Shown in pieces: positions 3,802-62,934 of a DNA stretch of 64,000 nucleotides (its first letter is position 1; each line of letters opens with the position of its first letter). The stretch comes from an uncultured Gammaproteobacteria bacterium (GTDB lineage: Bacteria; Pseudomonadota; Gammaproteobacteria; GCA-001735895), in NCBI GenBank assembly GCA_947260025.1, contig CAMYON010000002.1, positions 3,714 to 67,713 on the forward strand, given 5' to 3'. The translations under genes and the position numbers were made by a program. A model generated the notes under the pieces. The model was not told the DNA's origin and ran no database searches. It was given only the letters and a program-made list of their open reading frames with translations.

Positions 3802-3814
3802 ATGCTATCTCCCG

Positions 3815-4462
3815 TTACCATGAAGTGGAATCGTCCAGCGTGGTGCGGCTGGTCGGCGCGCGTGGCCCCCGATCTTCCTTGCGCAACGGATTATCCGCGC
3901 GCTGCAGATCCTCCTCGTGCACCGTAATCTTGACCTTGCGTCGCGGCAGGTAGTGATTCGCCGGGTTGGTGCTCCATTCCGGCATCAGCTGGTATCCAGC
4001 GCTTTCGTTTATCGCGCGCGAGGCCTCCGATTCCGGGTCATGAATGTCGCCGTAGATACGCGCGCTGGTGGGACATGACAGCACGCACACCGGCTTGCGC
4101 TCCGCCTCGGGCAGAGTCTCGTCGTATATCCGGTCGACGCACAGCGTGCATTTCTTCATCACCTTCTGCTGCTCATCGATTTCACGCGCGCCGTAGGGGC
4201 AGGCCCAGGAGCAGTACTCGCAGCCGATACACTTGTCGTAGTCGACCAGCACGATGCCATCCTCGGGACGCTTGTAGCTCGCGCCGGTGGGACATACCGG
4301 CACGCAGGGCGGGTCTTCGCAATGCAGGCAGGACTTCGCGTAGGGATTGCGGTCCACCATCGGCCCCGCCTCACCTGAAGTATTCCATTCCTTGCAGCTG
4401 GTGACGCAGGCGTGACAACCGACGCAGGTGTTCAGATCTATAACCAGGGCGAGCTGCGTCAT
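3815..4462 (-). CDS. soeB: Molybdopterin oxidoreductase 4Fe-4S iron-sulfur subunit (DmsB/PsrB/SoeB-like)
   Basis: MTQLALVIDLNTCVGCHACVTSCKEWN... with four Cys clusters (CIGCEYCSWACPYGA, CTLCVDR...). The ATG overlaps the soeA stop (ATGA). No Tat signal. The ORF-track upstream extension overlaps soeA and is rejected. Confidence 0.65.
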   Translation of the reverse strand: MTQLALVIDLNTCVGCHACVTSCKEWNTSGEAGPMVDRNPYAKSCLHCEDPPCVPVCPTGASYKRPEDGIVLVDYDKCIGCEYCSWACPYGAREIDEQQKVMKKCTLCVDRIYDETLPEAERKPVCVLSCPTSARIYGDIHDPESEASRAINESAGYQLMPEWSTNPANHYLPRRKVKITVHEEDLQRADNPLRKEDRGPRAPTSRTTLDDSTSW

Positions 4463-20036: not shown

Positions 20037-20957
20037 ATGACTCAATCTAAGCCCAGCAAACTAGCCCAGGTACTGGCGGACGGCCACTTCGCGATTACGG
20101 CGGAAACCTCGCCCCCCGACGCGGCCTCGACGCAGGCGGTGATCGACCGGGTGGCCTGCCTCGAGGGTTTGGCGGACGCGGTCAACGTAACCGACGGCGC
20201 CAGCGCTCGCGTGCATATGTCGGCCTTTGCCACCGCCACGATTATGGTGCAGCAAGGTATCGAACCGGTACTGCAAATGACCACCCGCGATCGGAACCGC
20301 CTGGCACTGCAGGGGGATGTGGTTGGCGCGTCGGCGCTCGGTATTCATAACTTCCTGTGCCTCACCGGCGACAAGATGGCGGCCGGCGACCAACCGGAGG
20401 CGGCAGAAGTCTTCGAGCTCGATAGCGGCGAGTTGATGCGCCAGATGCGCGATATGCGAGATTCCGGGACTTTCCCGTCGGGGCGCCAGATCGATCCGCC
20501 GCCGTCACTGTTTCTGGGCGCCGCTGAAATGCCGGCCGAACCGGGCGACAACTGGCCGGCGGCGAGACTGCAGGCCAAGATCGACAACGGTACCCAGTTC
20601 TTTCAGACCCAGTACTGTTTCGAACTCGACAAGGTGAAACGTTACTGCGCTGCCCTGGTCGATGGCGGCTTTACCGAGCAGGCATATTTCCTGATAGGCA
20701 TCGGACCGCTGGCGTCGGCAAAATCGGCGCGCTGGATGAACGAAAACCTGTTCGGCGTGCACGTGCCGGACGCTATTATCGAACGCCTCGAGGGCGCCGA
20801 GGATCAGCGTGCCGAGGGGCGCGCGATCTGCGCCGAGCTGCTGCAGGGCTTTTCCGAGATCGAGGGTTGCGCCGGTGCCCACTTGATGGCGCCGCATGGC
20901 GAGGCTTCCTGCGCGCAGGTCATCGCGGAATCGGGCTTGCTCGGACTCAGGTCCTGA
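20037..20957 (+). CDS. Methylenetetrahydrofolate reductase family protein (MetF-like, divergent)
   Basis: ...HFAITAETSPP..., then the TTRDRN block and a C-terminal barrel. Overall MTHFR (PF02219) topology. Start at the internal Met (20037). Confidence 0.6.
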   Translation: MTQSKPSKLAQVLADGHFAITAETSPPDAASTQAVIDRVACLEGLADAVNVTDGASARVHMSAFATATIMVQQGIEPVLQMTTRDRNRLALQGDVVGASALGIHNFLCLTGDKMAAGDQPEAAEVFELDSGELMRQMRDMRDSGTFPSGRQIDPPPSLFLGAAEMPAEPGDNWPAARLQAKIDNGTQFFQTQYCFELDKVKRYCAALVDGGFTEQAYFLIGIGPLASAKSARWMNENLFGVHVPDAIIERLEGAEDQRAEGRAICAELLQGFSEIEGCAGAHLMAPHGEASCAQVIAESGLLGLRS

Positions 20958-23166
20958 CCAGGTTCAGAATGCTTCCCGAATCGGTCGATTCGACCGCACG
21001 CGCAACGATCCGGGCCTGCGTATAGCCCCGGGCCCGCAGTTGCTGCAGGCAATCCTGCGCGACTTCCGGAGCGACGCTCGCCAGCAGGCCGCCGGCGGTT
21101 TGCGGATCGAATATCAACGGGTAATGGTCATGCGTCGCGAGGCCGTGCTGATCGCCGATGCCGTGACGGATGCGCACATTCTGCGGCTTTAACGAGCTTT
21201 CGATACCGCGCCGCGAGAGCTCCACGGCACCAGGGTAAAGCGGCAATTGCTGCAGCAGAATTTCCACCCCGCAGCCGGAAGCGCGCGCCATTTCGCACAG
21301 GTGGCCAGCGAGACCGAAACCGGTTACGTCGGTGCAGGCGCTGGCGCCGAAGCTCCGCAGACAGGAAGCCGCCGCGCGACTCGAAACCAGCATCTGCTCG
21401 AGTGCCGCATCGATCCAGGCGGAGCGTGCCTGACCGCGCATTTCTCCCGCGAACAGCACGCCGCTGCCGAGCGCTTTGGTCAGAATCAGTAAATCGCCAG
21501 GGCGCATTCCGGATTTCAGCAACAACTCCTCCGGCCTCGCGAAACCGTTTACGCTGAGGCCGCAACTCATCTGGCTGGACTCGCCACTGTGGCCGCCGAC
21601 CAGCATCGTATTATGCTGGGCCAGCGTCTCGGCCACGCCCGACATCAGTTGATACAGGTCCTGTGCCTGCCTGGCCTCGCTGGCGAACACCACGTTGGCG
21701 ATCACCAGGGCGCTATGCGGGTCGACGCCCATGGCGAACAGATCTCCCAGGGCATGGTTGGCCGCGATACGTCCGAACAGGTACGGGTCATCGATGAAAC
21801 TGCGAAAATGATCGATCGACTGCACCAGTTCCAACCCCGCCGGCACCCGAATCAGGGCCGCGTCGTCGGCATGCTCGAAACCCGAATCACGGGTGGCCGC
21901 GTAACGATTGCCTATCTCGGCCAGCACCTGGTCGAGTATTTCGCTGCCGACTTTCGAACCACAACCGCCGCAGCGCATCGGCGCCAGGTCCTCGACCTCG
22001 TCGGTGGCTGGCTGCATTGCCGGCAACTCGGTAAAACGCCGCACGAATTTGCGATCGATCCTGTCCTTTAACCACCAGCACCAATTGCCCTGTAATGCCC
22101 AGGGACCGCGGCTGGCGACGGCGAAACGATCGCCGGTGGAAATCAACGACAGAAACTGCCGCTGCGGTTTGAATGGCCTGAGTTCCCGCCCGCGCAACCA
22201 ACGCTCCAGGTTTCGCGCCAGCGGCAGGCCCTGGCGCACCGCGAATACGCCCGACTTGGGCCGAGGGAATTCATTGACCGAGGCGATGTCACCGGCGGCG
22301 AACAGGTTTTGATGGGAAACGCTTTGCAAACAAGGCGTAACCTCGATAAAACCCCGTTCGTCGAGCTTCAAACCCGTTTCACGCAGCCAGCCCGCCGGGC
22401 TGGCCTGGGTAACCCAGATTGCGGCATCGGTGGCGATCGTGGCCGCATGATTTGCGCGTAATAATCCATCCTCGAAACAATCAACGCCAAAGCCGTAATG
22501 CACCGGGATAGACCGCTGCTCGAGGATGCGGCTGAACATTCGCCGGACGCGAGCGTTATGGCCGGGCAACAGTTGGGAGCGGTCGGTAACGATGCGCAGT
22601 TTGAGCCTGGCGCACGGCGGTTGCAACTGGCGCGCGCGATAATCCAGCGACAGTGCCAGTTCGACGCCCCCGGCTCCGCCACCGATAATTGCCAGGTTAA
22701 AATCCTCCTCGCTCTCGCGCAGGCGCCGTTCCAGCCGATCCCAGGATTCGATAAATCGATCGACCGGCTTGACCGCGAACTGAAGACTGTCGGTTTGCGC
22801 TAGCGGCGGGCTCGTCGGCCTCGAACCGATGTTGATCGACAGCAAGTCATAGTCGAGCTCCGGCCGGTTAGCGAATTGCACCCGACCGCGCTCGGCATCG
22901 AGCCCGCTCACCTCGTCGTGTATCACCCGCGCACCGGCATAGCGTGCCAGCGGCAACAGGTCGATATGAGCATCGTCGAATTTATAATGCCCGGCGATGA
23001 AACCGGGCAGCATCCCGGAATACGGCGTATGCAGATCGCGGCTGACCAGGGTCAGGCGGACACCAGGCACCGGGTTCATTGCGAAATACTTGAGCACGAA
23101 CAAATGGCTGTGCCCGCCCCCGATCAACACCAGGTCGGAGGTGACCGCTACTTCATTCTGTTGCAT
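20947..23166 (-). CDS. selD: Fusion of an FAD/NAD(P)-binding pyridine nucleotide-disulfide oxidoreductase domain to selenide, water dikinase (SelD, Cys form)
   Basis: N-terminal Rossmann motifs LVLIGGGHSH and LAIIGGGAGGVE. The C-terminal ~340 aa align with E. coli SelD (MRCGGCGSKVGS vs GAGCGCKISP; FGRIAANHALGDLFAMG vs FGRIAATNAISDIFAMG). Cys, not Sec, at the active site. Confidence 0.85.
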   Translation of the reverse strand: MQQNEVAVTSDLVLIGGGHSHLFVLKYFAMNPVPGVRLTLVSRDLHTPYSGMLPGFIAGHYKFDDAHIDLLPLARYAGARVIHDEVSGLDAERGRVQFANRPELDYDLLSINIGSRPTSPPLAQTDSLQFAVKPVDRFIESWDRLERRLRESEEDFNLAIIGGGAGGVELALSLDYRARQLQPPCARLKLRIVTDRSQLLPGHNARVRRMFSRILEQRSIPVHYGFGVDCFEDGLLRANHAATIATDAAIWVTQASPAGWLRETGLKLDERGFIEVTPCLQSVSHQNLFAAGDIASVNEFPRPKSGVFAVRQGLPLARNLERWLRGRELRPFKPQRQFLSLISTGDRFAVASRGPWALQGNWCWWLKDRIDRKFVRRFTELPAMQPATDEVEDLAPMRCGGCGSKVGSEILDQVLAEIGNRYAATRDSGFEHADDAALIRVPAGLELVQSIDHFRSFIDDPYLFGRIAANHALGDLFAMGVDPHSALVIANVVFASEARQAQDLYQLMSGVAETLAQHNTMLVGGHSGESSQMSCGLSVNGFARPEELLLKSGMRPGDLLILTKALGSGVLFAGEMRGQARSAWIDAALEQMLVSSRAAASCLRSFGASACTDVTGFGLAGHLCEMARASGCGVEILLQQLPLYPGAVELSRRGIESSLKPQNVRIRHGIGDQHGLATHDHYPLIFDPQTAGGLLASVAPEVAQDCLQQLRARGYTQARIVARAVESTDSGSILNLVRT

Positions 23167-37973: not shown

Positions 37974-40900
37974 CTACTGGTTTAAAAGTTTGCTGTACGC
38001 ATCATATTCCTTTTTCAGGCTGTTATCCATTTTTAAGGCCTGTTCATAGCTGCTCCTGGCCGCCTGCAGATCGCCTGCACTATAGTGCGCCATAGACAGA
38101 TTTATCCATATTCTGCCATCCTCGGGGTCGAGTTCGGCGGCCCGCGCATAGTTTTCGATTGCCCGCGCGTAATCTTTCTGCAAAAAGTACAGGTTACCGC
38201 GATTGCTCTTGACCGCACTGTCCTGGGGCGCCAGTTCATCCAGTGCATCGAAGGCCAGCTCCGCCTTTTCATACAGCCCATAACGTGCATAAAGAATACC
38301 TATTTGCAGCCGTGCGGCGATATTACTCGGATTATTGTCCACCATGGCCCGATAAGGCAGAATCAGGCGATCGATACTCTTCTGCAGCAGCAGGCCCTGC
38401 GCCTGTCGGACAAGACTCTCGGTGCGTCGCACCTCCGGCAATTCAATCGAATAGCTCGCCTTGCGCAGCGTTACCGGCTGGTAGGCTTGCCACGCCTGGT
38501 CCAGGCTGATTATCCCGAGTTCGCCAGTCTCGAGTGCGGCCTGATACTTGCGCGCGCCCTCGGCCCAGGCCTCGTTGAAATTCGTATTAACCATGGTAGC
38601 TTCCAGCGGTATCCACACCTTGCCATCGTTTATCACCAGCAGACTGTTGTCCTGGCTGATTAGATCAGCCTCCTGCTCGGCGAGGCCGGTATCGAACATC
38701 AGGAAAAGATGCCCCGGAACTTCAATGAAGGCGGTATTGATACCCAGGTTCTCGAGCCCGGCACTGATTAATACCGACAAATCATCGCAATCCCCGCTTT
38801 TGAGCCGCAGGGTTTCGCGTGGAAACTGCACGTAGTCGACCTGGTCATCGCGTAACTCGTTAAACGGGGTATTGGGATCAACAATGTAATTAATGCCGGA
38901 GGCGGTGAGACTGCTGAAGTACGCCATCGCCGCAACCAGCTTTTCGTTCAGCGGCCCAGGATCTGGTTGAAAGGCATTGACCACCTGGCGCACGTAATCC
39001 CTGAGCGTGTCATCTTTCGGCGTCACGAACGAACCGATCATTTCCGCGTCACCCCAAACGATCGCATTCTTACCGTAAACCGTCATCGGCTGGGTCAAGG
39101 TAATGTCATCCTTTTGCCCATCACGCTGATAGGTCAACCTGACTTCGACCTGAACCCCCGTGTCTTCGTCGACCTCGAGAATTCGGTTGTTGAAAGTGGC
39201 GTTTATCGGGATTTCCCGGGTTTCCTTACCCTCGATTACGGCAATATCGACCGCCGTTGGAAAGTCCATAAACTCCTTGATCTGGAAGGATAGTTTCAGG
39301 TTACCGTAGTCGGTGGCGCTGACGTTACGCAAGTTGACGCTGCCGATTGGCCGGTCCTGGTACTTTTTGTAAGCGGCCGAAAAAACCGTGTCCAGATTCA
39401 GGTCGGAAAGCAACAACTGGGGAGCGTTGTTCTTGAATTCGAGCGATTTCTTGCGTTCCGCGAAAGCAACGTTCAGGATCGCGCGATTCTGCTCCGAAGG
39501 ATCGAGTTCTACCGCTTGCTCGAACTCCGCAACCGCGGCGTCGAACATACGCCGCTTGGCATAAAGGTTTCCGAGCGCAACATGCGGTTCCGCCCATTGC
39601 GGCCGAATCGCGGCCGCCCGCTCCAGGTGATCGCTAGACGCATCGAACAGGTTTGCATCCTGATAGACGCGCCCGATTCGATACTGCAAATCGGCAGAAG
39701 TGGAATCGACACTGATCGCCGTCTTGAGAAACTCGATCGCGGAGCCAACCTTGCCCTGTTGATTGGCAATATCTGCCTGTAGCACCAGTACGTCGATATC
39801 CTCGGGGGCGATCCTGGAGGCCGCCTCGGCATGAATCGAGGCAGAACGGTAGTTGCGGGTGGCAAACAGGCTACGAGCGTAGCGCTTGCGTTCATTCAGC
39901 GATTGCGGCTGCAGTGTAACGGCCGTCTCGAGATAGACGTTGGCGTCTCGGTAGCTTTCGCGCTCGAGTTCAATCTTGCCCGCGAGCGCATACAGCTCGA
40001 ATGCATCGGGATTTTGTTGAATGCCCTGGGCCAGCGATTTTACAGCTTCGGCGGGCTGTTTCATTTCAACGAAGGAGCGCGCCAGGGACAGCCATGCGTC
40101 GATCACTTCGGGACTATCCTTGACAACTCGCGTCAGACGCAAGACCGCCTCTTTGTGCCTGCCCTGCTTGGCGGCAATTTTACCGAGCAGGTAGTAGCCT
40201 TCGCTCCGGGTTTCCTTGCCACCGGACAACTCGACCGCTACCGACCTGGCCTCCTCGTCGCGGTTAAGATGCAGCAGCGAGCGTGCCTTTCCGACCGCGG
40301 CGGCGCCCAAATCCGGCCGCATTCCGGAGACCGCCGCATAGTGCCCCAACGCCTCCTCGTAATTACCCATGTTGTATAGATCCTGTGCAATCCTGAGCCT
40401 GATCCTGAAATCATCGGGATGGCGCTCGACTATCGCCTGGTAAGTAAGCAGACCGTCGTCGACGATACCTGCTTCGATATAGGCCCTACCCAGCAGGTAT
40501 CGCAGTTCGACATTTTCCGGGTACGCGACGAGACCATCCTCGGCGCAGGTAACCGCTCCGAGAGCATCCGCCAGGTTTAAACTCGACCGGGCACAGATCA
40601 AAAACGGCTCCACTTCGGACGGCTCCTGTTCCAGCACTTCATCGATTAGCGCTCGAGCCTCGAGAAATTGCCCCAGCTCATAATGCGCCCGCACCTGATA
40701 AAGAATCGCCTTGTCATGATATATCTCCGAATCCGCAAGTCGCCTGAACTCGCCGAGCGCTCGCGTATAATTTTTTAACTGGTAGAGACTCATGCCCAGT
40801 AAATCGCGCACATCGGCGTTGTCCGGTTCGAGTCGAAGCATCTTGTCAGCCAGGTTGACCACGTCGGCGAATTCATTGCTTTCGTAAAGTCCGGTAATCG

Positions 40901-42953
40901 TCTGAAAATGGTTCTGCTTCGGCAGCGATGGTGCAGCACGCAGTCCGTGAGCGCTCACCGATACGACTCTGAACCACCTGTACTCGCCGGCGTCATCGAC
41001 CGACAGCGTCTGCCCCAGCGACGAGCTCGTGGAAATGGTCTCGAACGGGCCATCCCTGTTCCTGGCAGCCTCGACTTCATACTTTTCGATAAGCGGAGAT
41101 TTACTGCTGCTCCATGCCAGGTTGATCTGATCTCTGTTGGCAGAGATATTCAGGCCAAACGCTGAATCCGGATACTCCAGCAGGTCGAAACGAAAATACT
41201 TCTGACGTTCGCTGTCGTTGACATAAATACTGTTCTTTGCGCCGGAAGATACCGAAATCGATGTCGCTTTTTCGAGATACGCCAGGGTTCCATTCTTACC
41301 CGCGGAGCCGAAGGCGCGGTAAGGTTCGAAATTGCTGAACACCTGAACCCAGTAATCGTTGAAATCCGAGGCTGCCAATACATAGAGCCGGTCCTGCAGA
41401 TCAATATCCAGTCCGTAGAAACGGGTGAACTCATGCAGTGATTTTCCCTTGATACCGATGGCAGCGATTTTTTTGCGATCCTTGTTGATCACCTGAATCA
41501 CTCCGCCCGCGCCCCGGTCTGCAATGTAAAGATTCTCTTCGCTATCCAGGGCGATGGGCCCTACTTCGACGAATAGTTGTTCGCCGTCTCGTTGTTGATT
41601 GATCTCTTCCAGAAACTGCCCATCACTCGAAAAAACCTGGATCCTGTTATTACCCTTGTCGGTAACATAATATTTGCCATGACTTACGAAAACATCGCTG
41701 GGATTCTGAAATCCGGCGGCAGAAGTTCCATAGCGGCCTATCGTAAAAAGCTTGCTACCGTCGAGGGAAAAAGCATGTAACCTGTTTTTGTCGAGTATTG
41801 CCACCGATTGCGCGCCAACGTGAATCGCCTGCGGCTTTTTCGCCTCCTCGGCGAACCTGCCGGTCTCTTTGCCGTCGGCTCCGAGTATGACAATTCCCTG
41901 GTTGTCAGGTCTTATGCAAAGGACCCGGCCTTCGGTAAAAACGGTCATCGCCACGCAGGGTGCATCGTAAGCAGCACCGAATTCAAGCAAATCGATCGCC
42001 ACGGGAGTGGCAAAACCGGTCTGGTCCAGCTGTAAAACCTCTACCTTCTTGTTCCTGGTATCCAGAATCGCTAGCTGGCCGTTGGTATTGACAGACAATT
42101 GGCTAATATCGAGAAAACGCGTGCGCGATTGCCCCAACCCGCCAAACTCTCCAAACACCTGTCGCGTTCGCCAGTCGAAAAACACGACCCGTTTGCTGAC
42201 AGCATCGCCAAGGTAAAGATTTCCGTCCAGATCGGTGGTCAGTGCGCTGAACTCCGGCGTTTCGCCAAAGAACTCCGTTAATTCTTGCGCCGTAACACGC
42301 TCGATCAGATTCCCCTGCCGGTTAAAAACGGATATACGGGTCGGGCCCTCGAGCACATAAATATTCTCGTCGGCATCGATACTGATATGGGTGGGCTTGA
42401 GGAGATCCGTTTTTCTGTTGCCATTCCTGCCAATACTGCGCAAAAAAAGCCCCTGGTAATTAAATACGCTGATCTGCTTGTTATTGACGTCGCCCAGGTA
42501 AATCTTTCTGTTGGACGAGACCGCAACCGCTTTCGGATCATTGAGTTCGCCCGGAGAGCTTCCGGATTGCGAAAACCGTGTCACCAGCTCTAACGCCGGA
42601 TCCAGTATCACAACCTCTCCGGAGCCTTCGTTTACGACGACCAGGTTACCGTTGGGTAGTATATCGACACCGCCGAGACTGGAGTCATCGAAAATGGAGG
42701 GTAACAGACTGATTGCTTCGATACTGCCGTCGACGATTCTTAACAGCGTACCCTGTTCTTCGCTGGTGACATAAACCACGCCATCGTCGCTTATTTTTAT
42801 ACCGCTGGCGTCCTCCATGATCCGGGCATAGTCACCAGCCTCGATAAATTGAAGAATTTCGATCGCCCGCGCCTGGGCCGACAAGCCTGTTAGAACAAGG
42901 ACGATTAATATCCGGAGACAATACTTTTGCGCTTTCATGACCTCGTTCCGCAA
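37974..42953 (-). CDS. Giant secreted multidomain protein: signal peptide, NHL-repeat beta-propellers, FN3 domain, ~10 TPR repeats, transglutaminase-like cysteine protease core, C-terminal TPRs
   Basis: 1,659 aa. N-terminal signal peptide. Repeated NHL-like blades (YVTDKGNNRIQVFSSDGQF, LYIADRGAGGVIQVINKD, LAILDTRNKKVEVL). Transglutaminase-like catalytic region SGDCDDLSVLISAGLENLGINTAFIEVPGHLFLMFD, with Cys, His and Asp spaced as in TGase/BTLCP cores. Long TPR arrays before and after. By eye, the gene has lower GC (~50-53%) than its flanks. Confidence 0.7.
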   Translation of the reverse strand: MRNEVMKAQKYCLRILIVLVLTGLSAQARAIEILQFIEAGDYARIMEDASGIKISDDGVVYVTSEEQGTLLRIVDGSIEAISLLPSIFDDSSLGGVDILPNGNLVVVNEGSGEVVILDPALELVTRFSQSGSSPGELNDPKAVAVSSNRKIYLGDVNNKQISVFNYQGLFLRSIGRNGNRKTDLLKPTHISIDADENIYVLEGPTRISVFNRQGNLIERVTAQELTEFFGETPEFSALTTDLDGNLYLGDAVSKRVVFFDWRTRQVFGEFGGLGQSRTRFLDISQLSVNTNGQLAILDTRNKKVEVLQLDQTGFATPVAIDLLEFGAAYDAPCVAMTVFTEGRVLCIRPDNQGIVILGADGKETGRFAEEAKKPQAIHVGAQSVAILDKNRLHAFSLDGSKLFTIGRYGTSAAGFQNPSDVFVSHGKYYVTDKGNNRIQVFSSDGQFLEEINQQRDGEQLFVEVGPIALDSEENLYIADRGAGGVIQVINKDRKKIAAIGIKGKSLHEFTRFYGLDIDLQDRLYVLAASDFNDYWVQVFSNFEPYRAFGSAGKNGTLAYLEKATSISVSSGAKNSIYVNDSERQKYFRFDLLEYPDSAFGLNISANRDQINLAWSSSKSPLIEKYEVEAARNRDGPFETISTSSSLGQTLSVDDAGEYRWFRVVSVSAHGLRAAPSLPKQNHFQTITGLYESNEFADVVNLADKMLRLEPDNADVRDLLGMSLYQLKNYTRALGEFRRLADSEIYHDKAILYQVRAHYELGQFLEARALIDEVLEQEPSEVEPFLICARSSLNLADALGAVTCAEDGLVAYPENVELRYLLGRAYIEAGIVDDGLLTYQAIVERHPDDFRIRLRIAQDLYNMGNYEEALGHYAAVSGMRPDLGAAAVGKARSLLHLNRDEEARSVAVELSGGKETRSEGYYLLGKIAAKQGRHKEAVLRLTRVVKDSPEVIDAWLSLARSFVEMKQPAEAVKSLAQGIQQNPDAFELYALAGKIELERESYRDANVYLETAVTLQPQSLNERKRYARSLFATRNYRSASIHAEAASRIAPEDIDVLVLQADIANQQGKVGSAIEFLKTAISVDSTSADLQYRIGRVYQDANLFDASSDHLERAAAIRPQWAEPHVALGNLYAKRRMFDAAVAEFEQAVELDPSEQNRAILNVAFAERKKSLEFKNNAPQLLLSDLNLDTVFSAAYKKYQDRPIGSVNLRNVSATDYGNLKLSFQIKEFMDFPTAVDIAVIEGKETREIPINATFNNRILEVDEDTGVQVEVRLTYQRDGQKDDITLTQPMTVYGKNAIVWGDAEMIGSFVTPKDDTLRDYVRQVVNAFQPDPGPLNEKLVAAMAYFSSLTASGINYIVDPNTPFNELRDDQVDYVQFPRETLRLKSGDCDDLSVLISAGLENLGINTAFIEVPGHLFLMFDTGLAEQEADLISQDNSLLVINDGKVWIPLEATMVNTNFNEAWAEGARKYQAALETGELGIISLDQAWQAYQPVTLRKASYSIELPEVRRTESLVRQAQGLLLQKSIDRLILPYRAMVDNNPSNIAARLQIGILYARYGLYEKAELAFDALDELAPQDSAVKSNRGNLYFLQKDYARAIENYARAAELDPEDGRIWINLSMAHYSAGDLQAARSSYEQALKMDNSLKKEYDAYSKLLNQ

Positions 42954-53781: not shown

Positions 53782-54654
53782 TCATGAATTTAATTGCGAT
53801 GCCACTTCGGCGGCGAAATCCTCGACTTTCTTTTCGATGCCTTCACCCACCTCGTAGCGCACGAAACGATTAACCCTGGCGCCGGCGGTAGACAGCAGCT
53901 TGCTTACGGTCTGCTCCTGGTCCTTGACAAAAGGCTGGCCCAGCAGCGTAACTTCGGCGAGAAACTTGTTGAGTCGGCCCTGAATCATTTTTTCGATGAT
54001 TTCCGGCGGCTTACCGCTGGATTCAGCCTGTGCAATGAGAATCCCCTTCTCCTTCTCGACAAACTCCGCAGGAACCGAATCCTGGTCGACAAACTGCGGG
54101 TTGACGGCGGCCACGTGCATCGCAATGTCGCGCGCCAGGTCCGGGTCCGCGTCGGAGTCGATCAGCACACCGATACGGTCGCCGTGCAGGTAGGATGCTA
54201 TCGACGCATCGGATTCGACGATTTCAAAACGACGCACCTGGATGTTTTCCCCGACCTTCGCAATCAGCGCCTGGCGCGCCTGTTCGACAGTCTGACCACT
54301 ACCCAGCGTCAGCGATGACAATTCTTCGACCGTGCCCGGCCTGTGCTCGGCAACTGCCGCCAGGACTTCTTCGGCGAATGCCTGGAAGTTATCGTCCTTG
54401 GCGACGAAGTCCGTTTCCGAGTTGATTTCGAGGATCACCGCTGACTTGCCGTCAGCGTTGACCAATACCTTGATTGCACCATCGGCGGCAACGCGGCCTG
54501 CCTTCTTATCCGCCTTGGCAGCACCCGATTTGCGCATCAGCTCTGCCGCTGCCTCGATATCGCCATCGGTTTCAACCAGGGCTTTCTTACATTCCATCAT
54601 GCCCGAACCGGTGCGTTCGCGCAGTTCTTTTACCAAAGATGCTGTTATAGCCAC
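53782..54654 (-). CDS. tsf: Elongation factor Ts
   Basis: [26 protein letters not shown]... is the canonical EF-Ts N-terminus. Confidence 0.95.
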
Positions 54655-54699
54655 TTCAATACCTCGTTAGTAAGCCTGCGGTACCTCGCAGGCGCTGAA

Positions 54700-55863
54700 T
54701 TAGTCCTTAGTAGCGTCCTTCTTGGTAGCGGCCTTCTTGGTCGCCGCCTTCTTGGTGGCTGCTTTCTTGGTCGCCGCCTTCTTGGTCGCTGCTTTCTTGG
54801 TCGCCGACTTCTTGGTAGCGGCCTTCTTGGTAGCGGCCTTCTTGGTCGCCGTCTTCTTGGTGGCTGCTTTCTTAGCTGCAGGCTCCTCCTCGGCCACGGG
54901 CTCTGCCGCTGCTGTAGAGTCATCCTTTGCACCTTCATCAACGTCAGCATCAGCCGCGGCTGGCGTAGCTGCCTCTTCGACCGCCGCACTCTGCGCAGGC
55001 GCTTCTGCAGGTGCTTCCTCTGCAGCTGCCGGCTCCTCTGCAGCCGCTGGTTCAGCTTCGGCTTGCGCCGCTGTTGCCGGTGTTTTCTTGGCGCTTACCT
55101 TGACCGCAGGCCTGGCTGCAACTGTTTCTGCATCCTCTTCGATTTCGATCAACTCGTCGTCGCTATCGGCCCCGGCAACGATACTTTGCTTACCTTCGAC
55201 AACGGCGTCGGCCACCAGCCGGGCATAAAGTTTAATAGCGCGCATCGAATCATCGTTGCCGGGTACGATGTACTCGACATTATCCGGGGAGTTGTTGGTG
55301 TCGACGATACCGACCACTGGAATGCCGAGCTTGGCGGCTTCCTGGACCGCGATCTTTTCGTATCCCACGTCGATTACGAACAGCACGTCAGGCAGACCAT
55401 TCATTTCCTTGATGCCGCCGAGTGTCTTCTCGAGCTTTTCCTGTTCGCGTGACAGCTGCAGTATTTCCTTTTTATTGATCTTTTCGTAGCTATTACTGGC
55501 GGCCATCTCTTCAAGCTCCTTGAGACGCTTGATCGACGCGCGTACGGTCCGAAAATTGGTCAGCATACCGCCCAGCCAACGGTGGTTGACAAACGGCATA
55601 CCGCAACGCTCGGCTTCCTCTTTGACCGCATCGCTAGCGGCACGCTTGGTGCCGACAAACATGATTTTGCCTTTCTTGGATGCGACCTTGCCGAGGTAAT
55701 TCACCGCGTCCTTGCACAGCGGCATGGTTTGCTCGAGGTTGATGATGTGGATCTTGTTGCGCTCGCCAAAAATGAAGGGCGCCATTTTAGGGTTCCAGAA
55801 ACGGGTTTGGTGACCGAAATGCACGCCCGCTTCCAACATTTCACGCATGGTGACGTTAGACAT
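54700..55863 (-). CDS. rpsB: 30S ribosomal protein S2 with a ~140-aa low-complexity C-terminal extension (acidic Ala/Glu/Pro block, then basic (AATKK)n repeats)
   Basis: The first ~245 aa are a canonical S2 ([27 protein letters not shown]...). The tail is ...[18 protein letters not shown]... then [22 protein letters not shown]... about 11 times. Start at the internal Met with a GGAGA ribosome-binding site. Confidence 0.9.
54705..54878. repeat. 15-bp tandem repeat (~11 units, consensus cttcttggtMgcSgc) encoding the (AATKK)n tail of rpsB
   Basis: Direct reading of 54705-54878: ...ccttcttggtagcggccttcttggtcgccgccttcttggtggctgctttcttggtcgccgcc... Confidence 0.85.
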
Positions 55864-56109
55864 AGTATCTCCAGATGTCTGTTGAACAGCCTGTTTGCGG
55901 CTATCCTGGGTTAAGCCTCCACATACCCGACGCTCACGACCTGCTGTCTCTGGTAAAACGCAGGCACCCATGAACGCGTTGCGGCATGTGTGTGTCGTTA
56001 GGGAACACCGAAAATTGCGATGCCCCGATTAATTTGCCCCTGCAGTTGCCGAGGGCGCGCGCTTTATACCATAATCCCGTATTCTCAACAACCAGCCAGC
56101 AGTAGTTTT

Positions 56110-59540: not shown

Positions 59541-61124
59541 ATGCCCTCTTCCCTGGGTAATCCATTCCAGCAGGCGCTGGACGGCGAAAACAACGCGATT
59601 CAGTTCGATGTCGCCTACCCGGTTCACGGCAGCCTGGCCAGCGCCGTGGCGGAATTGCGTCAAATCCATGGGCAGGATATCTACCTGTTGCCGATGTCCG
59701 GCACTTCCTGCGGCGGGGGCATATTCCAGGCGCCTGGTCCCAGCCATCCGCCAGGCACGGTAATCGGGCTCAGATTCGATCCGCCGGCGGTTCCGCGGGT
59801 CACGCTCGACACCGCGCCGAAGCTGGCCGACCTGGAGCTCGACCAAATCGTCATCGACCTGCAGACACAGCAGGTGGCAGCCGGTGCTGCCATCACGCTG
59901 GGACAGCTGAACCAGGCGCTGGCGCAGCAACTGGGACACAATTTCAAGGTCCCGGGTGCCGATCTGACCAGCTACCTGTATGCGGCGGTAGGGGCCACCT
60001 TCATGACTGGCGGTATGGGCCCGCAGCGTCGTTATTTTAGCGACAGCGTGGTCGGGGCCGCGATATTCGATGGCGATGCAGTCTGCAACATTATCGGCGA
60101 GGATCTGCAGGGCTACGCCGGCAGCTACGGCTGGAGCGGTATAGTCACCGCGGTGCGCTGTGCCTACTACCGCTTCCCGGATAATGAAGTGGCCTTCGCG
60201 CTGCCGGTCTCCAACCATCCCGACGATATTGCCCGGCTGCTGGACCGACTGTCGGCGTATTGCTATCTCGAGCTGGATCGAAACGGGGCCAGCTCCGCCG
60301 CCAATCAGGACGACCTGATTCTCGGGCTCGAGCATGTCAGCACCAGCTCGATGCGCCCGCTGCTGCGCGCCGTCGGTAAAAATCCGATGGCCGCACGGGC
60401 ACAGGACCTGCAACAAAAATGTGACGCTGCCAACGCCGACGGCCTGATCTTCGTCAACGGCTTCAGCCAGCGCTCGATCGACGAGTTTCTAACCGACATC
60501 TGCGACGAGCATCCGGCCGGCGAATTCACCATCGCGGGAGTTGCACTGGAACACGCCGAGGTTTTTACCGACCCGGAAGAAATGCGGGCGCTGCGCGAGG
60601 CCATACCCTACGAGGCCCGCATGCAAACACCCGGCGGCCGGCTGGTTTACAAAAACCACAGCGATGCAAACATTCGGATCGGCGCGGATGCGGTCTTTCG
60701 CAGCGTGCAGCAAATCTGGCATATCAACCGTGACTACGTTGACACGGTCGAAGGCTACTTCGACACCAACCCGGACATCGATGGCGAAATCCTGGTTTAC
60801 GGCCATCTCAATCCCTACGGCATCGACCCGCATAACCGGGTTACGATTAGCAGCGACGACGAGGCAGCGTTCGAGCGCGCCCGTGAATTCCTGCTAGAGC
60901 AGCGCGCGCGCTACTACCGGGGCCTCGAAACGCTGTGCCAAACCGGCGACGCGGTTTTCATCGGCGGTGAAAAAGCCGCCGATTCGGAAATTGCTATCTT
61001 CGAGGCGCTCGGCGGACCCCATCAATCACCGCCTGCCCTGTTTCGGCGATTCCAGCAGCAGCAGGCGACCATCGGCGCTGCGGCGCCAATGCTCAACTGG
61101 CGCGCGCTCCAGCCTTATCGCTGA
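59541..61124 (+). CDS. Hypothetical protein with a divergent FAD-binding PCMH-type (FAD-linked oxidase-like) N-terminal region
   Basis: PMSGTSCGGG...VTLDTAPKLADLELDQIVIDLQTQQVAAGAAITLGQLNQAL parallels the GlcD/FAD_binding_4 GGGTxxxGG...VTLGELNRAL blocks. The remainder has no recognisable family. Confidence 0.4.
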   Translation: MPSSLGNPFQQALDGENNAIQFDVAYPVHGSLASAVAELRQIHGQDIYLLPMSGTSCGGGIFQAPGPSHPPGTVIGLRFDPPAVPRVTLDTAPKLADLELDQIVIDLQTQQVAAGAAITLGQLNQALAQQLGHNFKVPGADLTSYLYAAVGATFMTGGMGPQRRYFSDSVVGAAIFDGDAVCNIIGEDLQGYAGSYGWSGIVTAVRCAYYRFPDNEVAFALPVSNHPDDIARLLDRLSAYCYLELDRNGASSAANQDDLILGLEHVSTSSMRPLLRAVGKNPMAARAQDLQQKCDAANADGLIFVNGFSQRSIDEFLTDICDEHPAGEFTIAGVALEHAEVFTDPEEMRALREAIPYEARMQTPGGRLVYKNHSDANIRIGADAVFRSVQQIWHINRDYVDTVEGYFDTNPDIDGEILVYGHLNPYGIDPHNRVTISSDDEAAFERAREFLLEQRARYYRGLETLCQTGDAVFIGGEKAADSEIAIFEALGGPHQSPPALFRRFQQQQATIGAAAPMLNWRALQPYR

Positions 61125-61182: not shown

Positions 61183-62934
61183 TCAGGATTTAAACTCCAG
61201 CAGCCGGGTCAAGGCCGGTAACGCCGCTGCGGGGTGCATGCCCAGGGCCTTGAGTTCGTCAAGCACGGGAACCGGCAGCGCCTGGGTCTCGATCTTCTGG
61301 TTCAAAACACCGCCCATAATCACCGGCACCGACAATTGCGCCTCGTCGAGCTGCCGTCTTAACTGCTGTGCGTACTCGAGCGCCATACCGTTATGGGTAC
61401 TGAGCAGCAGGACATCGGCGGGATTGTTGCGCAAGGCTGCAACCAGGTCGCCGGGATCCTGCTCGGCACCGAGGTAGACGACTTTCGCCTCGGTTTCCCC
61501 GAGCAGCTGTGCCAGGGCACCGGCCGCATGTTCATGCACGTCGCTGGAAGCGATCAAGAAACATTTATCCTTGACGCGGTCACGTAAACCCGGGGCGGCG
61601 AACAGCGGACGATGCTCGTCGATGACCTGCTGTGACATGTGGTAGATATCGGTACCGGTGGCGGCGTTGGCGTCGAGTTCCGATGCAAACAAGCGTTCGA
61701 AGCGCTGTGCGCCCATTTTCTTGAGCACGAATAGCATTTGTAACGGGTTGGCGGTATCGACGCCAACATCGCGCAAACCATCGAGCGCCCGGTGGTAGAT
61801 TTCGTTGCCCTGCCGGCAAACCTCGTCGGCGAAGCTCTGCGCCGCGGAGAAATCAACATGCGGGTAAAGCCGGCGCGCGCTTGCTTCCACCCGCCTCCCG
61901 AATAGCTGCGCCTCGATAATTTCCTCGGCAGAAGGAATCCGAATCGCCTCGGTGACCGGTAACGGCAACACCGCGTGACCGCTGGGCGCGTGCATCTGGA
62001 TCAGGATATCCCACAACAGGTACTCCGCGGTCAACGCCCGGTTCTGCTCGAATTCATGACCGAAAGAAATCGTATCCCCGTAGATCATCGAGCCCACCTG
62101 CTGGCCCTGGTGGATTCGATGCAGTGCCAGCACCCAGCCCGCTCGCTTCACCGGATCGCTGGTCAGTCCACCGATACAGTGGCTCAGGCGTGCACCGATC
62201 AACTCCTCTACGATGTAGCGTTCCAGCATCGCCCAGGCCGCGACGGTAGCGCAGTGTCGAAACAGGGCTCCATAGCCGTCTTCGAGGTAGGAATGCAGCA
62301 TCGTGCCACGGTCGCGTAATGCGCCCATTATCGCCATGGCCTGGTAAGTCTGCGCCGCGGTTTCCGCGGCATCGGACCAGCCCGGCGCCTCGAAAGTAAA
62401 ATACTGCGACAGGTTACCGATCGTGGTGCAGCCGATGCGCAGCGCCTGCAGGGTGTTGGCGACCGAAGCCGGCTGGCCGATCATGAAGTCGCCCAGGTGC
62501 GGCTGTATCGGCGCCGCTTGCGCCAGCGCGTCCCAGTCATACTGCCGCGTTAACATCGGCCCGGTCTCGGCCGCCGCCGCGGCTCGCCTGTCCGCCGGCA
62601 GACCCATGCGGCGATCGATTGCGAACCCGGCACGATCGAGGTAGTACTCCCGGTTGCCCAGCTCGTGATGAATCTTGCGCAGCGCGGCAGCGGTCGTATC
62701 GATGTCGTTCATGCCAATATGGGCGTGGTACATGATCCGGCCGTCTCGCATTGCCTGCCGCTTGTATTCCAGTTCTGACGCGATACCGAATTTATGCAGA
62801 AATGCAGATTGCCCGATGCTAACCTGTCCCGCCAGCTCGACGGCCTCGGCGCGTAGTTGATTGAAATCAGGTAACCGGGTTTGCAGCAGCGGCCGCAGCG
62901 ATTCGATAGTCTGCGACATCGCTTCAGCGGTCAA
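61183..62934 (-). CDS. Cobalamin (B12)-binding domain protein, mutase-like: large N-terminal domain fused to a C-terminal Rossmann-type B12-binding domain
   Basis: The C-terminal ~130 aa (KDKCFLIASSDVHEHAAGALAQLLG...VLLLSTHNGMA...VPVIMGGVL) resemble the DxHxxG B12-binding domains of MCM/GlmS with a one-residue insertion. The N-terminal ~430 aa are unassigned. Its start overlaps the upstream beta-CA by 11 bp. Confidence 0.5.
   Translation of the reverse strand: MTAEAMSQTIESLRPLLQTRLPDFNQLRAEAVELAGQVSIGQSAFLHKFGIASELEYKRQAMRDGRIMYHAHIGMNDIDTTAAALRKIHHELGNREYYLDRAGFAIDRRMGLPADRRAAAAAETGPMLTRQYDWDALAQAAPIQPHLGDFMIGQPASVANTLQALRIGCTTIGNLSQYFTFEAPGWSDAAETAAQTYQAMAIMGALRDRGTMLHSYLEDGYGALFRHCATVAAWAMLERYIVEELIGARLSHCIGGLTSDPVKRAGWVLALHRIHQGQQVGSMIYGDTISFGHEFEQNRALTAEYLLWDILIQMHAPSGHAVLPLPVTEAIRIPSAEEIIEAQLFGRRVEASARRLYPHVDFSAAQSFADEVCRQGNEIYHRALDGLRDVGVDTANPLQMLFVLKKMGAQRFERLFASELDANAATGTDIYHMSQQVIDEHRPLFAAPGLRDRVKDKCFLIASSDVHEHAAGALAQLLGETEAKVVYLGAEQDPGDLVAALRNNPADVLLLSTHNGMALEYAQQLRRQLDEAQLSVPVIMGGVLNQKIETQALPVPVLDELKALGMHPAAALPALTRLLEFKS

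What the first reader, a model, noticed from the sequence alone, without database searches (positions are those of the whole stretch)
54700..55200. Ribosomal protein S2 with a histone-H1-like (AATKK)n C-terminal tail encoded by a 15-bp tandem DNA repeat
After a canonical S2 core of ~245 aa, the protein continues for ~140 aa. First comes an acidic Ala/Glu/Pro-rich spacer, then about 11 tandem AATKK pentapeptides. These are encoded by a near-perfect 15-bp tandem repeat (cttcttggtMgcSgc on the plus strand). Lys/Ala-rich tails of this type occur in AlgP/histone-like proteins and in some ribosomal proteins. They can bind nucleic acid or polyphosphate. The repeat is also a potential site of copy-number variation by slipped-strand mispairing. 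Whether the tail is expressed and whether it affects ribosome function is unknown.
Basis: seen in the sequence. Interest (0 to 1): 0.55.

Follow-up and report, generated by a model that had tools for sequence, protein, structure and literature searches.

The report
Ribosomal protein S2 with histone-like tail
The gene for ribosomal protein S2 in this uncultured gammaproteobacterium really does encode an extra 160-residue floppy tail, an acidic stretch followed by eleven lysine-rich AATKK-type repeats; the tail is shared by the whole lineage, so it is an uncharacterised example of a familiar kind of add-on, not a one-off oddity.

Summary
rpsB (window 54700-55863, minus strand) is one intact 387-aa ORF. 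It has a canonical uS2 core (about residues 1-228), a conserved linker (229-262), an acidic Ala/Glu/Pro block (263-327, net -18) and a basic block (328-387, net +21). The basic block holds 11 xAxKK pentapeptides plus DATKD. It is encoded by a 15-bp array (TRF 54713-54873, 10.7 copies), the only strong tandem repeat in the window. At DNA level the array is 83% matched, not near-perfect.

The tail is not an assembly error or a strain novelty. 119 of the 120 best database clusters have the same architecture, as do all six complete species representatives with at least 79% core identity. Repeat number varies among them. Of the 80 nearest species, 58 carry some S2 tail of at least 25 aa (K-rich, R-rich or acidic).

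AlphaFold predicts the tail to be disordered. It fails the cut-off of every curated family tested (HC2, Burkholderia H1-like, the S2 'sunset' variant, PRK12311). Similar xATKK blocks sit on many unrelated proteins.

Best reading: a translated, selectively maintained, charge-segregated disordered tail that binds polyanions, most likely RNA, beside the bS1/mRNA-binding platform of the 30S subunit. The function is inferred, not shown. Interest is modest.

The parts
54700..55863 (-). rpsB coding sequence (387 codons plus TAA stop) for ribosomal protein uS2 with a C-terminal extension
   Evidence: TIGR01011 scores 343.9 bits against a cut-off of 76.3, and Pfam PF00318 gives E 8.6e-98. The start at ATG 55863 is supported by GGAG 8-11 nt upstream and by homologues that all begin [10 protein letters not shown].
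55180..55863 (-). Canonical uS2 core, residues 1-228
   Evidence: The Pfam domain covers residues 9-224. E. coli and Pseudomonas S2 chains in the PDB align to residues 1-240. AlphaFold gives the alpha/beta core moderate to high confidence.
55078..55179 (-). Conserved linker, residues 229-262 ([34 protein letters not shown]), with an acidic ELIEIE motif followed by a small basic PAVKVSAKK motif
   Evidence: The EL[IV]E[IV] motif is present in 112 of 127 family members, and a xVK[VI][ST]x[KR][KR] motif in 93 of 127. E237 and E240 are invariant in alignment A1. Against the closest relative there are only 2 non-synonymous and 4 synonymous changes and no gaps.
54883..55077 (-). Acidic Ala/Glu/Pro-rich block, residues 263-327, net charge -18
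   Evidence: This is the fastest-evolving segment: 14 non-synonymous and 8 synonymous differences plus 15 gapped columns against the closest relative. Its length is highly variable in the family; the part of the tail before the basic block spans 62-198 aa.
54703..54882 (-). Basic block, residues 328-387: 11 pentapeptides ending in KK (7 of them AATKK) plus the terminal DATKD, net charge +21
   Evidence: AATKK is the dominant unit in the family (675 of about 1150 units counted). The run of KK units is 9.3 +/- 1.8 and the block charge is +18 +/- 3.7 across 125 homologues.
54713..54873 (.). 15-bp tandem DNA array (plus-strand consensus GCGGCCTTCTTGGTC), 10.7 copies, 83% matches, no indels
   Evidence: It is the only array in the 64-kb window that scores above 54.
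55910..56012 (-). rpsB 5' leader (Rfam t44, RF00127), the operator element for uS2 autoregulation in Gammaproteobacteria
   Evidence: 54.7 bits against a gathering score of 44, E 2.6e-09, full-length match 1-95/95. The role of the leader is taken from PMC10931766.
53782..54654 (-). [quoted passage not shown]
   Evidence: TIGR00116 scores 357.8 bits against a cut-off of 104.

Best explanation
This is a genuine, translated, lineage-conserved C-terminal extension of ribosomal protein uS2.

Anatomy (shown): an intrinsically disordered 'diblock polyampholyte'. A short conserved linker leaves the uS2 core. About 65 acidic Ala/Glu/Pro residues (net -18) follow and act as a flexible spacer. The tail ends in about 60 residues of (A-A-T-K-K)n (net +21) of the histone-H1/Hc2-like low-complexity type.

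Mechanism (inferred): uS2 sits on the solvent side of the 30S subunit. It is the docking platform for bS1, and together with S1, S18 and S21 it encloses the mRNA-binding region near the 3' end of 16S rRNA. The lysine block would therefore act as a tethered, sequence-unspecific polyanion-binding arm. It most likely contacts RNA, either mRNA 5' regions or exposed rRNA, and raises the local affinity of the 30S platform for mRNA. This would be a covalently attached counterpart of the KPAA-repeat disordered region of Pseudomonas PhaF. [quoted passage not shown] The acidic block keeps the net tail charge near zero and may shield the basic block until a better polyanion competes.

The 15-bp DNA repeat is how the block was built and how its length drifts (in-frame unit gains and losses). 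In this genome the units are old and diverged, not a hot contingency locus.

My estimates: real, translated and under selection, about 0.95. Binds some polyanion electrostatically, about 0.6. Specifically aids mRNA or rRNA interactions at the ribosome, about 0.3-0.4. The confidence value given for this explanation refers to the full mechanistic reading.
For: Real and in frame:
- The ORF is intact.
- The same core + linker + acidic + (xATKK)n + AASKD-type end is found in 119 of the 120 best 90%-identity clusters (358-490 aa). It is also found in all 6 complete GTDB species representatives with at least 79% core identity.
- All 8 orthologous CDSs examined are single uninterrupted ORFs.

Under selection:
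- Differences between units are mostly synonymous (86 versus 37).
- Repeat number and block charge stay in a narrow range (9.3 +/- 1.8 units, +18 +/- 3.7) despite frequent indels.
- The linker is conserved.
- The rpsB leader for autoregulation is intact, so this is the functional housekeeping copy in the normal map/glnD | rpsB-tsf-pyrH-frr context.

Disordered and charge-segregated:
- AlphaFold pLDDT is below 50 with no secondary structure from residue 234 onward.
- The kappa-like segregation measure is about 0.41 and exceeds all 2000 shuffles. The fraction of charged residues is 0.36 and the net charge per residue is -0.01.

Nucleic-acid-binding character:
- The tail's weak best matches are histone H1-like DNA-binding protein (NF038053) and Hc2.
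- 62 of 118 proteins that share the block are Pfam HC2.

Position on the ribosome:
- In PDB 4TOI, S1's N-terminal segment is fused after S2 residues 4-236 of one chain and binds S2 (PMC4288201).
- S1, S2, S18 and S21 enclose the mRNA-binding region (PMC5655137).
- uS2 is implicated in the Shine-Dalgarno helix chamber (PMC10931766).

Precedent: the PhaF KPAA disordered region binds mRNA and activates translation, with a 30S-bridging model (PMC12818456).
Against: - No experiment or proteomic datum shows that the tail is made or binds anything.
- The tail fails every curated family threshold, so the 'H1-like' label rests on composition.
- Acidic and basic charges are uncorrelated across the family (r = -0.06), which argues against fine-tuned intramolecular neutralisation.
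- The acidic block evolves almost freely.
- The same xATKK block occurs on dozens of unrelated proteins. Sister lineages have R-rich tails, acidic-only tails or none. The function may therefore be generic, or weak.
- The solved S2 structures do not show where a long C-terminal tail would go. No PDB S2 chain exceeds 294 aa.
Confidence: 0.4

Rival explanations
1. Tolerated low-complexity growth. The tail is a slippage-generated, essentially function-less disordered appendage on a solvent-exposed terminus. It is kept only because it does no harm, and its composition reflects mutational and compositional drift rather than a role.
For: - Length and sequence turn over rapidly. Against a relative with 98% core identity, the acidic block has 14 non-synonymous and 8 synonymous changes and 15 gap columns.
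- Acidic and basic charge are not correlated.
- Tail chemistry differs or the tail is absent in neighbouring lineages.
- The same block is scattered over many unrelated proteins.
Against: - uS2 is one of the most abundant cell proteins, and a 40% length increase is costly. Yet the tail is retained in 119 of 120 clusters and all 6 complete species representatives.
- Unit number and charge stay in a narrow band.
- Within the basic block, synonymous differences outnumber non-synonymous ones.
- Charged tails arose on S2 in several lineages with different repeat units, which suggests recurrent selection.
Confidence: 0.25
2. Extraribosomal or localisation role. The basic block anchors uS2 or whole ribosomes to the nucleoid (DNA) or to polyphosphate granules, in the way AlgP-type histone-H1-like proteins associate with polyP granules. 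It thereby organises ribosome position or stores ribosomes during starvation.
For: - The composition resembles H1-like, HC2 and Burkholderia H1-like DNA-binding proteins.
- AlgP, a Lys/Ala/Pro-repeat protein, associates with polyphosphate granules and affects their spacing (PMC9239181; PMC12818456).
Against: - There is no genomic link to ppk or nucleoid genes near rpsB.
- Permanent tethering of every 30S subunit to DNA or polyP would seem harmful for translation.
- The acidic block and near-zero net charge suggest weak, competable binding.
Confidence: 0.15
3. Ribosome-ribosome association. The segregated acidic and basic blocks act as complementary 'stickers' between neighbouring 30S subunits, or between the tail and rRNA of another ribosome. 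This would promote polysome packing, hibernating dimers or condensate-like clustering.
For: The tail has strong charge segregation (kappa about 0.41, above all 2000 shuffles) at near-zero net charge. From general polymer physics (my own knowledge, not tested here), this is the sequence pattern that favours intermolecular complex coacervation. uS2 lies on the exposed back of the 30S subunit (PMC10931766).
Against: The evidence is purely compositional. The block charges show no co-variation. Other lineages place basic and acidic blocks in other orders or lack one of them.
Confidence: 0.1
4. Artefact. A frameshift or mis-assembly in the repeat hides a normal stop near residue 250, so the tail is not real.
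For: None was found. One database homologue (P0073, 302 aa) does look frameshifted inside the acidic block, which shows that such errors occur in this region.
Against: - The ORF is intact, and there is no stop in frame between residue 228 and the TAA at 54700.
- The same frame and architecture appear in more than 120 independent assemblies from NCBI, JGI, ENA and Logan.
- Indels relative to the closest relative are multiples of 3 (13 and 10 codons).
Confidence: 0.01

Closest known systems
Bacterial ribosomal protein uS2 (RpsB; TIGR01011 / PF00318), first gene of the autoregulated rpsB-tsf operon
   Same: The full-length core passes both curated thresholds by a wide margin. The operon partner tsf and the t44 leader are present. 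Core identity to Pseudomonas and E. coli S2 is high (E about 1e-100).
   Different: The protein is 387 aa, against 241 aa in E. coli. No solved S2 chain exceeds 294 aa. About 160 aa of the protein lie outside the family model.
Curated long uS2 variants in NCBIfam: '30S ribosomal protein S2, sunset domain variant' (NF051451, 382-position profile) and PRK12311 (NF008966, 334 positions)
   Same: These show that uS2 with a long C-terminal addition is a recognised phenomenon. The overall length is similar.
   Different: The window protein scores 306 bits against a cut-off of 710, and 315 against 526. Ten other long gammaproteobacterial S2s score 282-305 and 301-320. The score comes from the core. 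The tail here is a different, uncurated one.
Histone H1-like Lys/Ala-repeat proteins of bacteria: Chlamydia Hc2 (Pfam HC2 PF07382), the Burkholderiales H1-like DNA-binding protein (NF038053), and Pseudomonas AlgP/PhaF KPAA repeats
   Same: All have short tandem Lys/Ala-rich peptide repeats, predicted disorder and variable copy number among relatives. They bind polyanions: DNA, RNA or polyP (PMC12818456, PMC9239181). 62 of 118 proteins that share the xATKK block are HC2 matches.
   Different: The window tail itself scores 12.3 bits against 40 for HC2 and 19-22 against 80 for NF038053. Its unit is AATKK, with Thr and no Pro, rather than KPAA. It is preceded by a long acidic block and fused to a ribosomal protein instead of being a free-standing nucleoid or granule protein.
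[quoted passage not shown]
   Same: A ribosomal protein carries a terminal H1-like Lys/Ala-rich low-complexity tail that is lineage-specific and evolved independently (PMC548281; PMC11764897).
   Different: Those are eukaryotic and sit on different ribosomal proteins. I know of no acidic spacer block in them, and their function is also unknown.

Membership tests
uS2 / RpsB (TIGR01011 rpsB_bact; Pfam PF00318) | The whole-protein score is above the curated cut-off and the match covers the full domain | tested here: met
   TIGR01011 scores 343.9 bits against 76.3, profile positions 2-224 of 225. PF00318 scores 326.3 bits against 26.1, positions 1-216 of 216.
uS2 / RpsB (TIGR01011 rpsB_bact; Pfam PF00318) | Gammaproteobacterial genomic context: rpsB-tsf operon with the conserved 5' leader | tested here: met
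   tsf lies 45 nt downstream, followed by pyrH and frr, with map and glnD divergent upstream. Rfam t44 scores 54.7 bits against 44 at 55910-56012.
30S ribosomal protein S2, sunset domain variant (NCBIfam NF051451) | The whole-protein score reaches the curated cut-off of 710 bits, which requires a match to the C-terminal 'sunset' part of the 382-position profile | tested here: not met
   The score is 306.2 bits and only profile positions 1-311 are matched. Ten other long gammaproteobacterial S2s score 282-305 bits.
PRK12311 long-form S2 (NCBIfam NF008966) | The score reaches 526 bits over the 334-position profile | tested here: not met
   The score is 315.3 bits and only profile positions 4-228 are matched.
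Histone H1-like nucleoprotein HC2 (Pfam PF07382) | The score reaches the 40-bit gathering threshold | tested here: not met
   The tail alone scores 12.3 bits, E 0.18. About 20 of the 120 family members do carry a precomputed PF07382 hit, and 62 of 118 proteins sharing the block match HC2. The resemblance is real but this sequence is not a member.
Histone H1-like DNA-binding protein, Burkholderiales type (NCBIfam NF038053) | The score reaches 80 bits | tested here: not met
   The score is 19.4 bits for the whole protein and 22 bits for the tail alone.
Histone H1-like / AlgP-PhaF type polyanion-binding repeat tails (functional class, not a curated family) | Tandem short Lys/Ala-rich peptide repeats in a predicted disordered region | tested here: met
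   There are 11 xAxKK units. pLDDT is below 50 with no secondary structure from residue 234 onward.
Histone H1-like / AlgP-PhaF type polyanion-binding repeat tails (functional class, not a curated family) | Demonstrated binding to DNA, RNA or polyphosphate | not testable with these tools
   This needs EMSA or filter binding with a recombinant tail, or CLIP in a cultured relative.

The most novel reading that the evidence does not exclude
Charged disordered tails on uS2 (K-repeat, R-rich or acidic) have arisen repeatedly across several gammaproteobacterial orders. They act as a built-in mRNA-capture or translation-activator arm at the bS1/Shine-Dalgarno platform. In effect this is a PhaF-like RNA-binding disordered region made a permanent part of the ribosome, changing how these (mostly uncultured, sediment and wastewater) bacteria recruit mRNA or couple to RNA polymerase.
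Probability: 0.15. Interest if true: 0.65.

Novelty: new member of a known kind. Interest (0 to 1): 0.3.

Why it matters
If the tail does bind RNA at the mRNA-binding platform of the 30S subunit, a large uncultured gammaproteobacterial clade has ribosomes with an extra mRNA-handling appendage. Convergent tails in neighbouring orders suggest others may too. This would be a bacterial example of ribosome specialisation through a disordered extension of a ribosomal protein. It would also be a natural, covalent test of the 'bridge mRNA to the 30S' model proposed for PhaF.

On the practical side, these long S2s (324-490 aa) are named plain '30S ribosomal protein S2' by current models. Their repeat region is a place where short-read assemblies can frameshift, as P0073 appears to have done.

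If the tail is merely tolerated low-complexity sequence, the finding is ordinary.

Tried and rejected
1. A homology search with the basic block alone (67 aa) returned nothing because of low-complexity filtering. A full-library phmmer search with the 159-aa tail replaced it.
2. I tested whether the Lys codons of the tail avoid AAA, to prevent poly-A slippage. The AAG:AAA ratio is the same in tail and core over 8 orthologues (OR 0.96, p 0.91). Rejected.
3. I tested whether acidic and basic block charges compensate each other across the family. No correlation (r = -0.06, p 0.51). Rejected as a fine-tuned constraint.
4. I tested for recent concerted evolution or an active slippage hotspot. Unit identity within the gene (0.81) equals that between genes (0.80-0.82), and only one adjacent pair is identical. 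Not supported for this genome, although copy number clearly changes over longer times.
5. The terminator-like hits on the plus strand at 54738-54866 are by-products of the repeat read antisense.
6. The alternative ORFs over the repeat are frame shadows of the repeat with no independent support. These are the plus-strand 54722-55228 'VAAFL' repeat and the minus-strand 54645-54989 Arg/Pro-rich ORF.
7. The rpsB-tsf intergenic hairpin folds no better than shuffles (z = -0.85).
8. An exact-sequence look-up of the window protein found no record, so source and habitat remain unknown.
9. Literature searches for 'sunset domain' and for bacterial S2 C-terminal extensions found no description of this tail. 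This negative covers only open-access PMC and bioRxiv.
10. I could not name the lineage below 'Gammaproteobacteria'.
Full report
**1. What is in the sequence**

On the minus strand, ATG 55863 opens a 387-codon ORF that ends at TAA 54700-54702. A longer ORF call from ATG 55971 overlaps the leader RNA. It is not supported, because all homologues begin [10 protein letters not shown] and GGAG lies 8-11 nt upstream of 55863.

Residues 9-224 match Pfam Ribosomal_S2 end to end (326 bits). The protein passes the NCBIfam equivalog TIGR01011 (344 bits against a cut-off of 76). Solved bacterial S2 chains align to residues 1-240 and none is longer than 294 aa.

Beyond the core the protein continues in three parts:
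- a linker, residues 229-262: [34 protein letters not shown];
- an acidic Ala/Glu/Pro block, residues 263-327, net -18;
- a basic block, residues 328-387, net +21, made of [20 protein letters not shown] x2, [10 protein letters not shown] x5 and a terminal DATKD.

Tandem Repeats Finder reports a period-15 array at 54713-54873 with 10.7 copies, 83% matches, no indels and score 196. It is the only substantial tandem repeat in the 64 kb; the next best scores 54. The repeat is near-perfect as peptide but only 83% matched as DNA. Adjacent units share 9-15 of 15 bases. Differences between units are mainly synonymous (86 synonymous against 37 non-synonymous codon-pair differences).

**2. Context**

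The gene sits in the standard gammaproteobacterial housekeeping arrangement. map and glnD are divergent upstream. tsf (45 nt downstream), pyrH, frr, uppS, cdsA, dxr, rseP and bamA follow on the same strand. The rpsB 5' leader (Rfam t44) is present at 55910-56012 above the gathering score. This leader is the operator through which uS2 represses its own operon (PMC10931766). This is therefore the cell's working rpsB, not a paralogue. No other real reading frame in the window encodes a Lys/Ala-periodic stretch.

**3. Not an artefact and not a strain novelty**

A protein search returned 8000 S2 relatives. The best 120 clusters at 90% identity (71-98% identity) come from NCBI, JGI, ENA and Logan assemblies, and nearly all are 358-463 aa long. 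Inspection shows the same architecture in 119 of them:
- the core;
- an ELIE[IV]E acidic motif;
- a PAVKV(S/T)AKK basic motif;
- a variable acidic A/E/P/T/V block;
- an (xATKK)n block, usually ending in AASKD.

The single exception, P0073 (302 aa), changes to a Gly/Arg-rich sequence inside the acidic block and looks frameshifted.

Among one-genome-per-species representatives, every complete rpsB with at least 79% core identity has the pentapeptide lysine tail (L001-L006, 324-490 aa). All eight orthologous CDSs that I extracted are single uninterrupted ORFs.

The exact protein is not on record.

**4. How the tail evolves**

I compared each segment with the closest relative, P0001/L081, which is 98% identical in the core:

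| Segment | Synonymous | Non-synonymous | Gapped columns |
|---|---|---|---|
| Core | 27 | 5 | 0 |
| Linker | 4 | 2 | 0 |
| Acidic block | 8 | 14 | 15 (includes a 13-codon indel) |
| Basic block | 9 | 7 | 8 |

The alignment also contains a 10-codon indel, exactly two repeat units, at the junction of the acidic and basic blocks.

Across 125 homologues:
- the KK run is 9.3 +/- 1.8 units (range 3-15);
- the basic-block charge is +18 +/- 3.7;
- the charge of the preceding part is -21 +/- 6;
- the net tail charge is -2.7 +/- 6.8;
- AATKK is by far the commonest unit.

In this genome the units are as different from each other (identity 0.81) as they are from units in other species (0.80-0.82). I therefore see no recent homogenisation and no active contingency-locus behaviour. 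Acidic and basic charges do not co-vary (r = -0.06). Lys codon choice in the tail does not differ from the core.

**5. Physical nature**

AlphaFold2, run on a 118-sequence alignment, models the core. From residue 234 onward it gives pLDDT below 50 and no secondary structure. The tail has 36% charged residues and a net charge per residue of -0.01. Its charges are strongly segregated: the kappa-like measure is about 0.41 and exceeds all 2000 shuffles. It is a disordered diblock polyampholyte.

**6. Relation to known families**

The tail reaches no curated threshold:

| Family | Score (bits) | Cut-off (bits) |
|---|---|---|
| Pfam HC2 | 12.3 | 40 |
| NCBIfam Burkholderiales histone H1-like protein | 19-22 | 80 |
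| NCBIfam S2 'sunset domain variant' | 306 | 710 |
| NCBIfam PRK12311 | 315 | 526 |

Ten other long gammaproteobacterial S2s also fail the last two models.

A filter-free phmmer search with the 159-aa tail against 1.84 billion representatives gave only 118 hits at E <= 1e-3, and none at E <= 1e-30. Of these, 62 match Pfam HC2. The rest carry the block on many unrelated domains, including adenylate kinase, WGR, trigger factor, relaxase, DEAD helicase and a PHA synthase subunit. Only three are S2. The (xATKK)n block is therefore a promiscuous histone-H1/Hc2-like low-complexity module, here attached to uS2.

H1-like tails on ribosomal proteins are documented in mosquitoes, on RpS6 and RpL23a (PMC548281; PMC11764897). 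I found no paper describing such a tail on bacterial uS2. That search covers open-access literature only.

**7. Wider pattern**

Of the 80 nearest species representatives, 58 have at least 25 residues beyond the core:
- 17 are K-rich. Some have other repeat units, such as KKKAA-type in a Woeseiaceae MAG and in MAGs labelled Ectothiorhodospiraceae.
- 32 are R-rich, many of them Steroidobacteraceae.
- 9 are acidic or other.

The remaining 22 are short. The order of the blocks and the repeat units differ between groups. This suggests repeated independent elaboration of a charged tail on the same terminus.

**8. Mechanism**

Shown: the anatomy, the conservation and the predicted disorder described above.

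From established knowledge:
- uS2 is required for bS1 binding.
- It has been implicated in the chamber that holds the Shine-Dalgarno helix (PMC10931766).
- S1, S2, S18 and S21 enclose the mRNA-binding region near the 3' end of 16S rRNA, where RNA polymerase can also dock (PMC5655137).
- In PDB 4TOI, the S1 N-terminal segment is fused after S2 residues 4-236 in one chain and binds S2. The S2 C-terminus is therefore within reach of the S1 site (PMC4288201).

Precedent: the KPAA-repeat disordered region of PhaF binds mRNAs upstream of the SD and activates translation. Its authors propose that it bridges mRNA to the 30S subunit (PMC12818456). AlgP, with similar repeats, associates with polyphosphate granules (PMC9239181).

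Inference: the lysine block is a tethered, unspecific polyanion-binding arm held on an acidic spacer next to the mRNA platform. It most likely contacts mRNA leaders or exposed rRNA. I give about 0.95 that the tail is real and maintained by selection, about 0.6 that it binds some polyanion, and 0.3-0.4 that the relevant partner is RNA at the ribosome.

Rivals are listed separately with their tests: tolerated low-complexity growth, nucleoid or polyP tethering, ribosome-ribosome association, and artefact.

**9. Verdict**

The feature is a lineage-wide, uncharacterised member of a known kind: a histone-H1-like disordered extension on a housekeeping or ribosomal protein. Interest is modest (0.3). 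It would rise if the recurrent S2 tails prove to alter mRNA recruitment.

Noticed in passing
window 55910-56012 (-): The rpsB 5' leader RNA (Rfam t44, RF00127) is present full length (54.7 bits against a gathering score of 44). The uS2 autoregulatory operator is therefore conserved in this uncultured lineage despite the long tail on the repressor protein.
   Followed up: partly
loci L007-L080 (rpsB at about 3001-4200 in each): Long charged S2 tails of other chemistries are common in neighbouring Gammaproteobacteria. Of the 80 nearest species, 32 are Arg-rich (many Steroidobacteraceae, about 330 aa), 17 are Lys-rich and 9 are acidic or other. Some Lys-rich tails use different repeat units, for example KKKAA-type in a Woeseiaceae MAG and in MAGs labelled Ectothiorhodospiraceae. 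None of those tested passes NCBIfam's long-S2 models.
   Followed up: partly
L014:3001-4227: In this MAG the S2 ORF (408 aa) reads on into sequence that is clearly the N-terminus of EF-Ts (…[26 protein letters not shown]…) before stopping. This is either an S2-EF-Ts fusion or, more likely, a frameshift or assembly error at the rpsB-tsf junction.
   Followed up: no
proteins P0121-P0238: The same xATKK block occurs on 118 otherwise unrelated proteins. 62 match Pfam HC2. Others are fused to adenylate kinase, WGR, trigger factor, MobA/MobL relaxase, a DEAD helicase or PHA synthase subunit E, at either the N- or the C-terminus. Their taxonomy is unknown.
   Followed up: partly
protein P0073 (302 aa, 95% identical to the window S2): This homologue switches to a Gly/Arg-rich sequence inside the acidic block and ends early. 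It is probably a frameshift error in a short-read contig, and shows that this region is error-prone in assemblies.
   Followed up: no
window 54722-55228 (+) and 54645-54989 (-): The ORF list shows a 168-aa antisense ORF ('[10 protein letters not shown]…') and a 114-aa out-of-frame Arg/Pro-rich ORF over the repeat. The plus strand also gives eight terminator-like hits, against 2.3 expected. All are by-products of the repeat's codon pattern.
   Followed up: yes
window 54655-54699 (-), rpsB-tsf spacer: A 7-bp stem (GCCUGCG…CGCAGGC) lies between the rpsB stop and the tsf GTG. It folds no better than shuffled sequence (z = -0.85), so no claim is made.
   Followed up: yes
window 37974-42953 (-): A 1659-aa ORF with many TPR repeats and an N-terminal NHL/PEP-CTERM-like stretch. 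It is below the threshold of every NCBIfam model, so its function is unassigned.
   Followed up: no
window 20947-23166 (-); 4459-7332 (-); 59541-61124 (+); 61183-62934 (-): An oxidoreductase-SelD fusion-type protein scores 490 bits against TIGR04369's cut-off of 700. A 957-aa molybdopterin oxidoreductase is of unassigned specificity (its best match, PhsA-like, is below the cut-off). Two large ORFs (527 and 583 aa) have no NCBIfam match at E <= 1e-10.
   Followed up: no
L008 (JBATHL010000039.1): The closest species representative (96% S2 identity over residues 1-185) has its contig end inside rpsB, before the tail, so its tail could not be compared.
   Followed up: no
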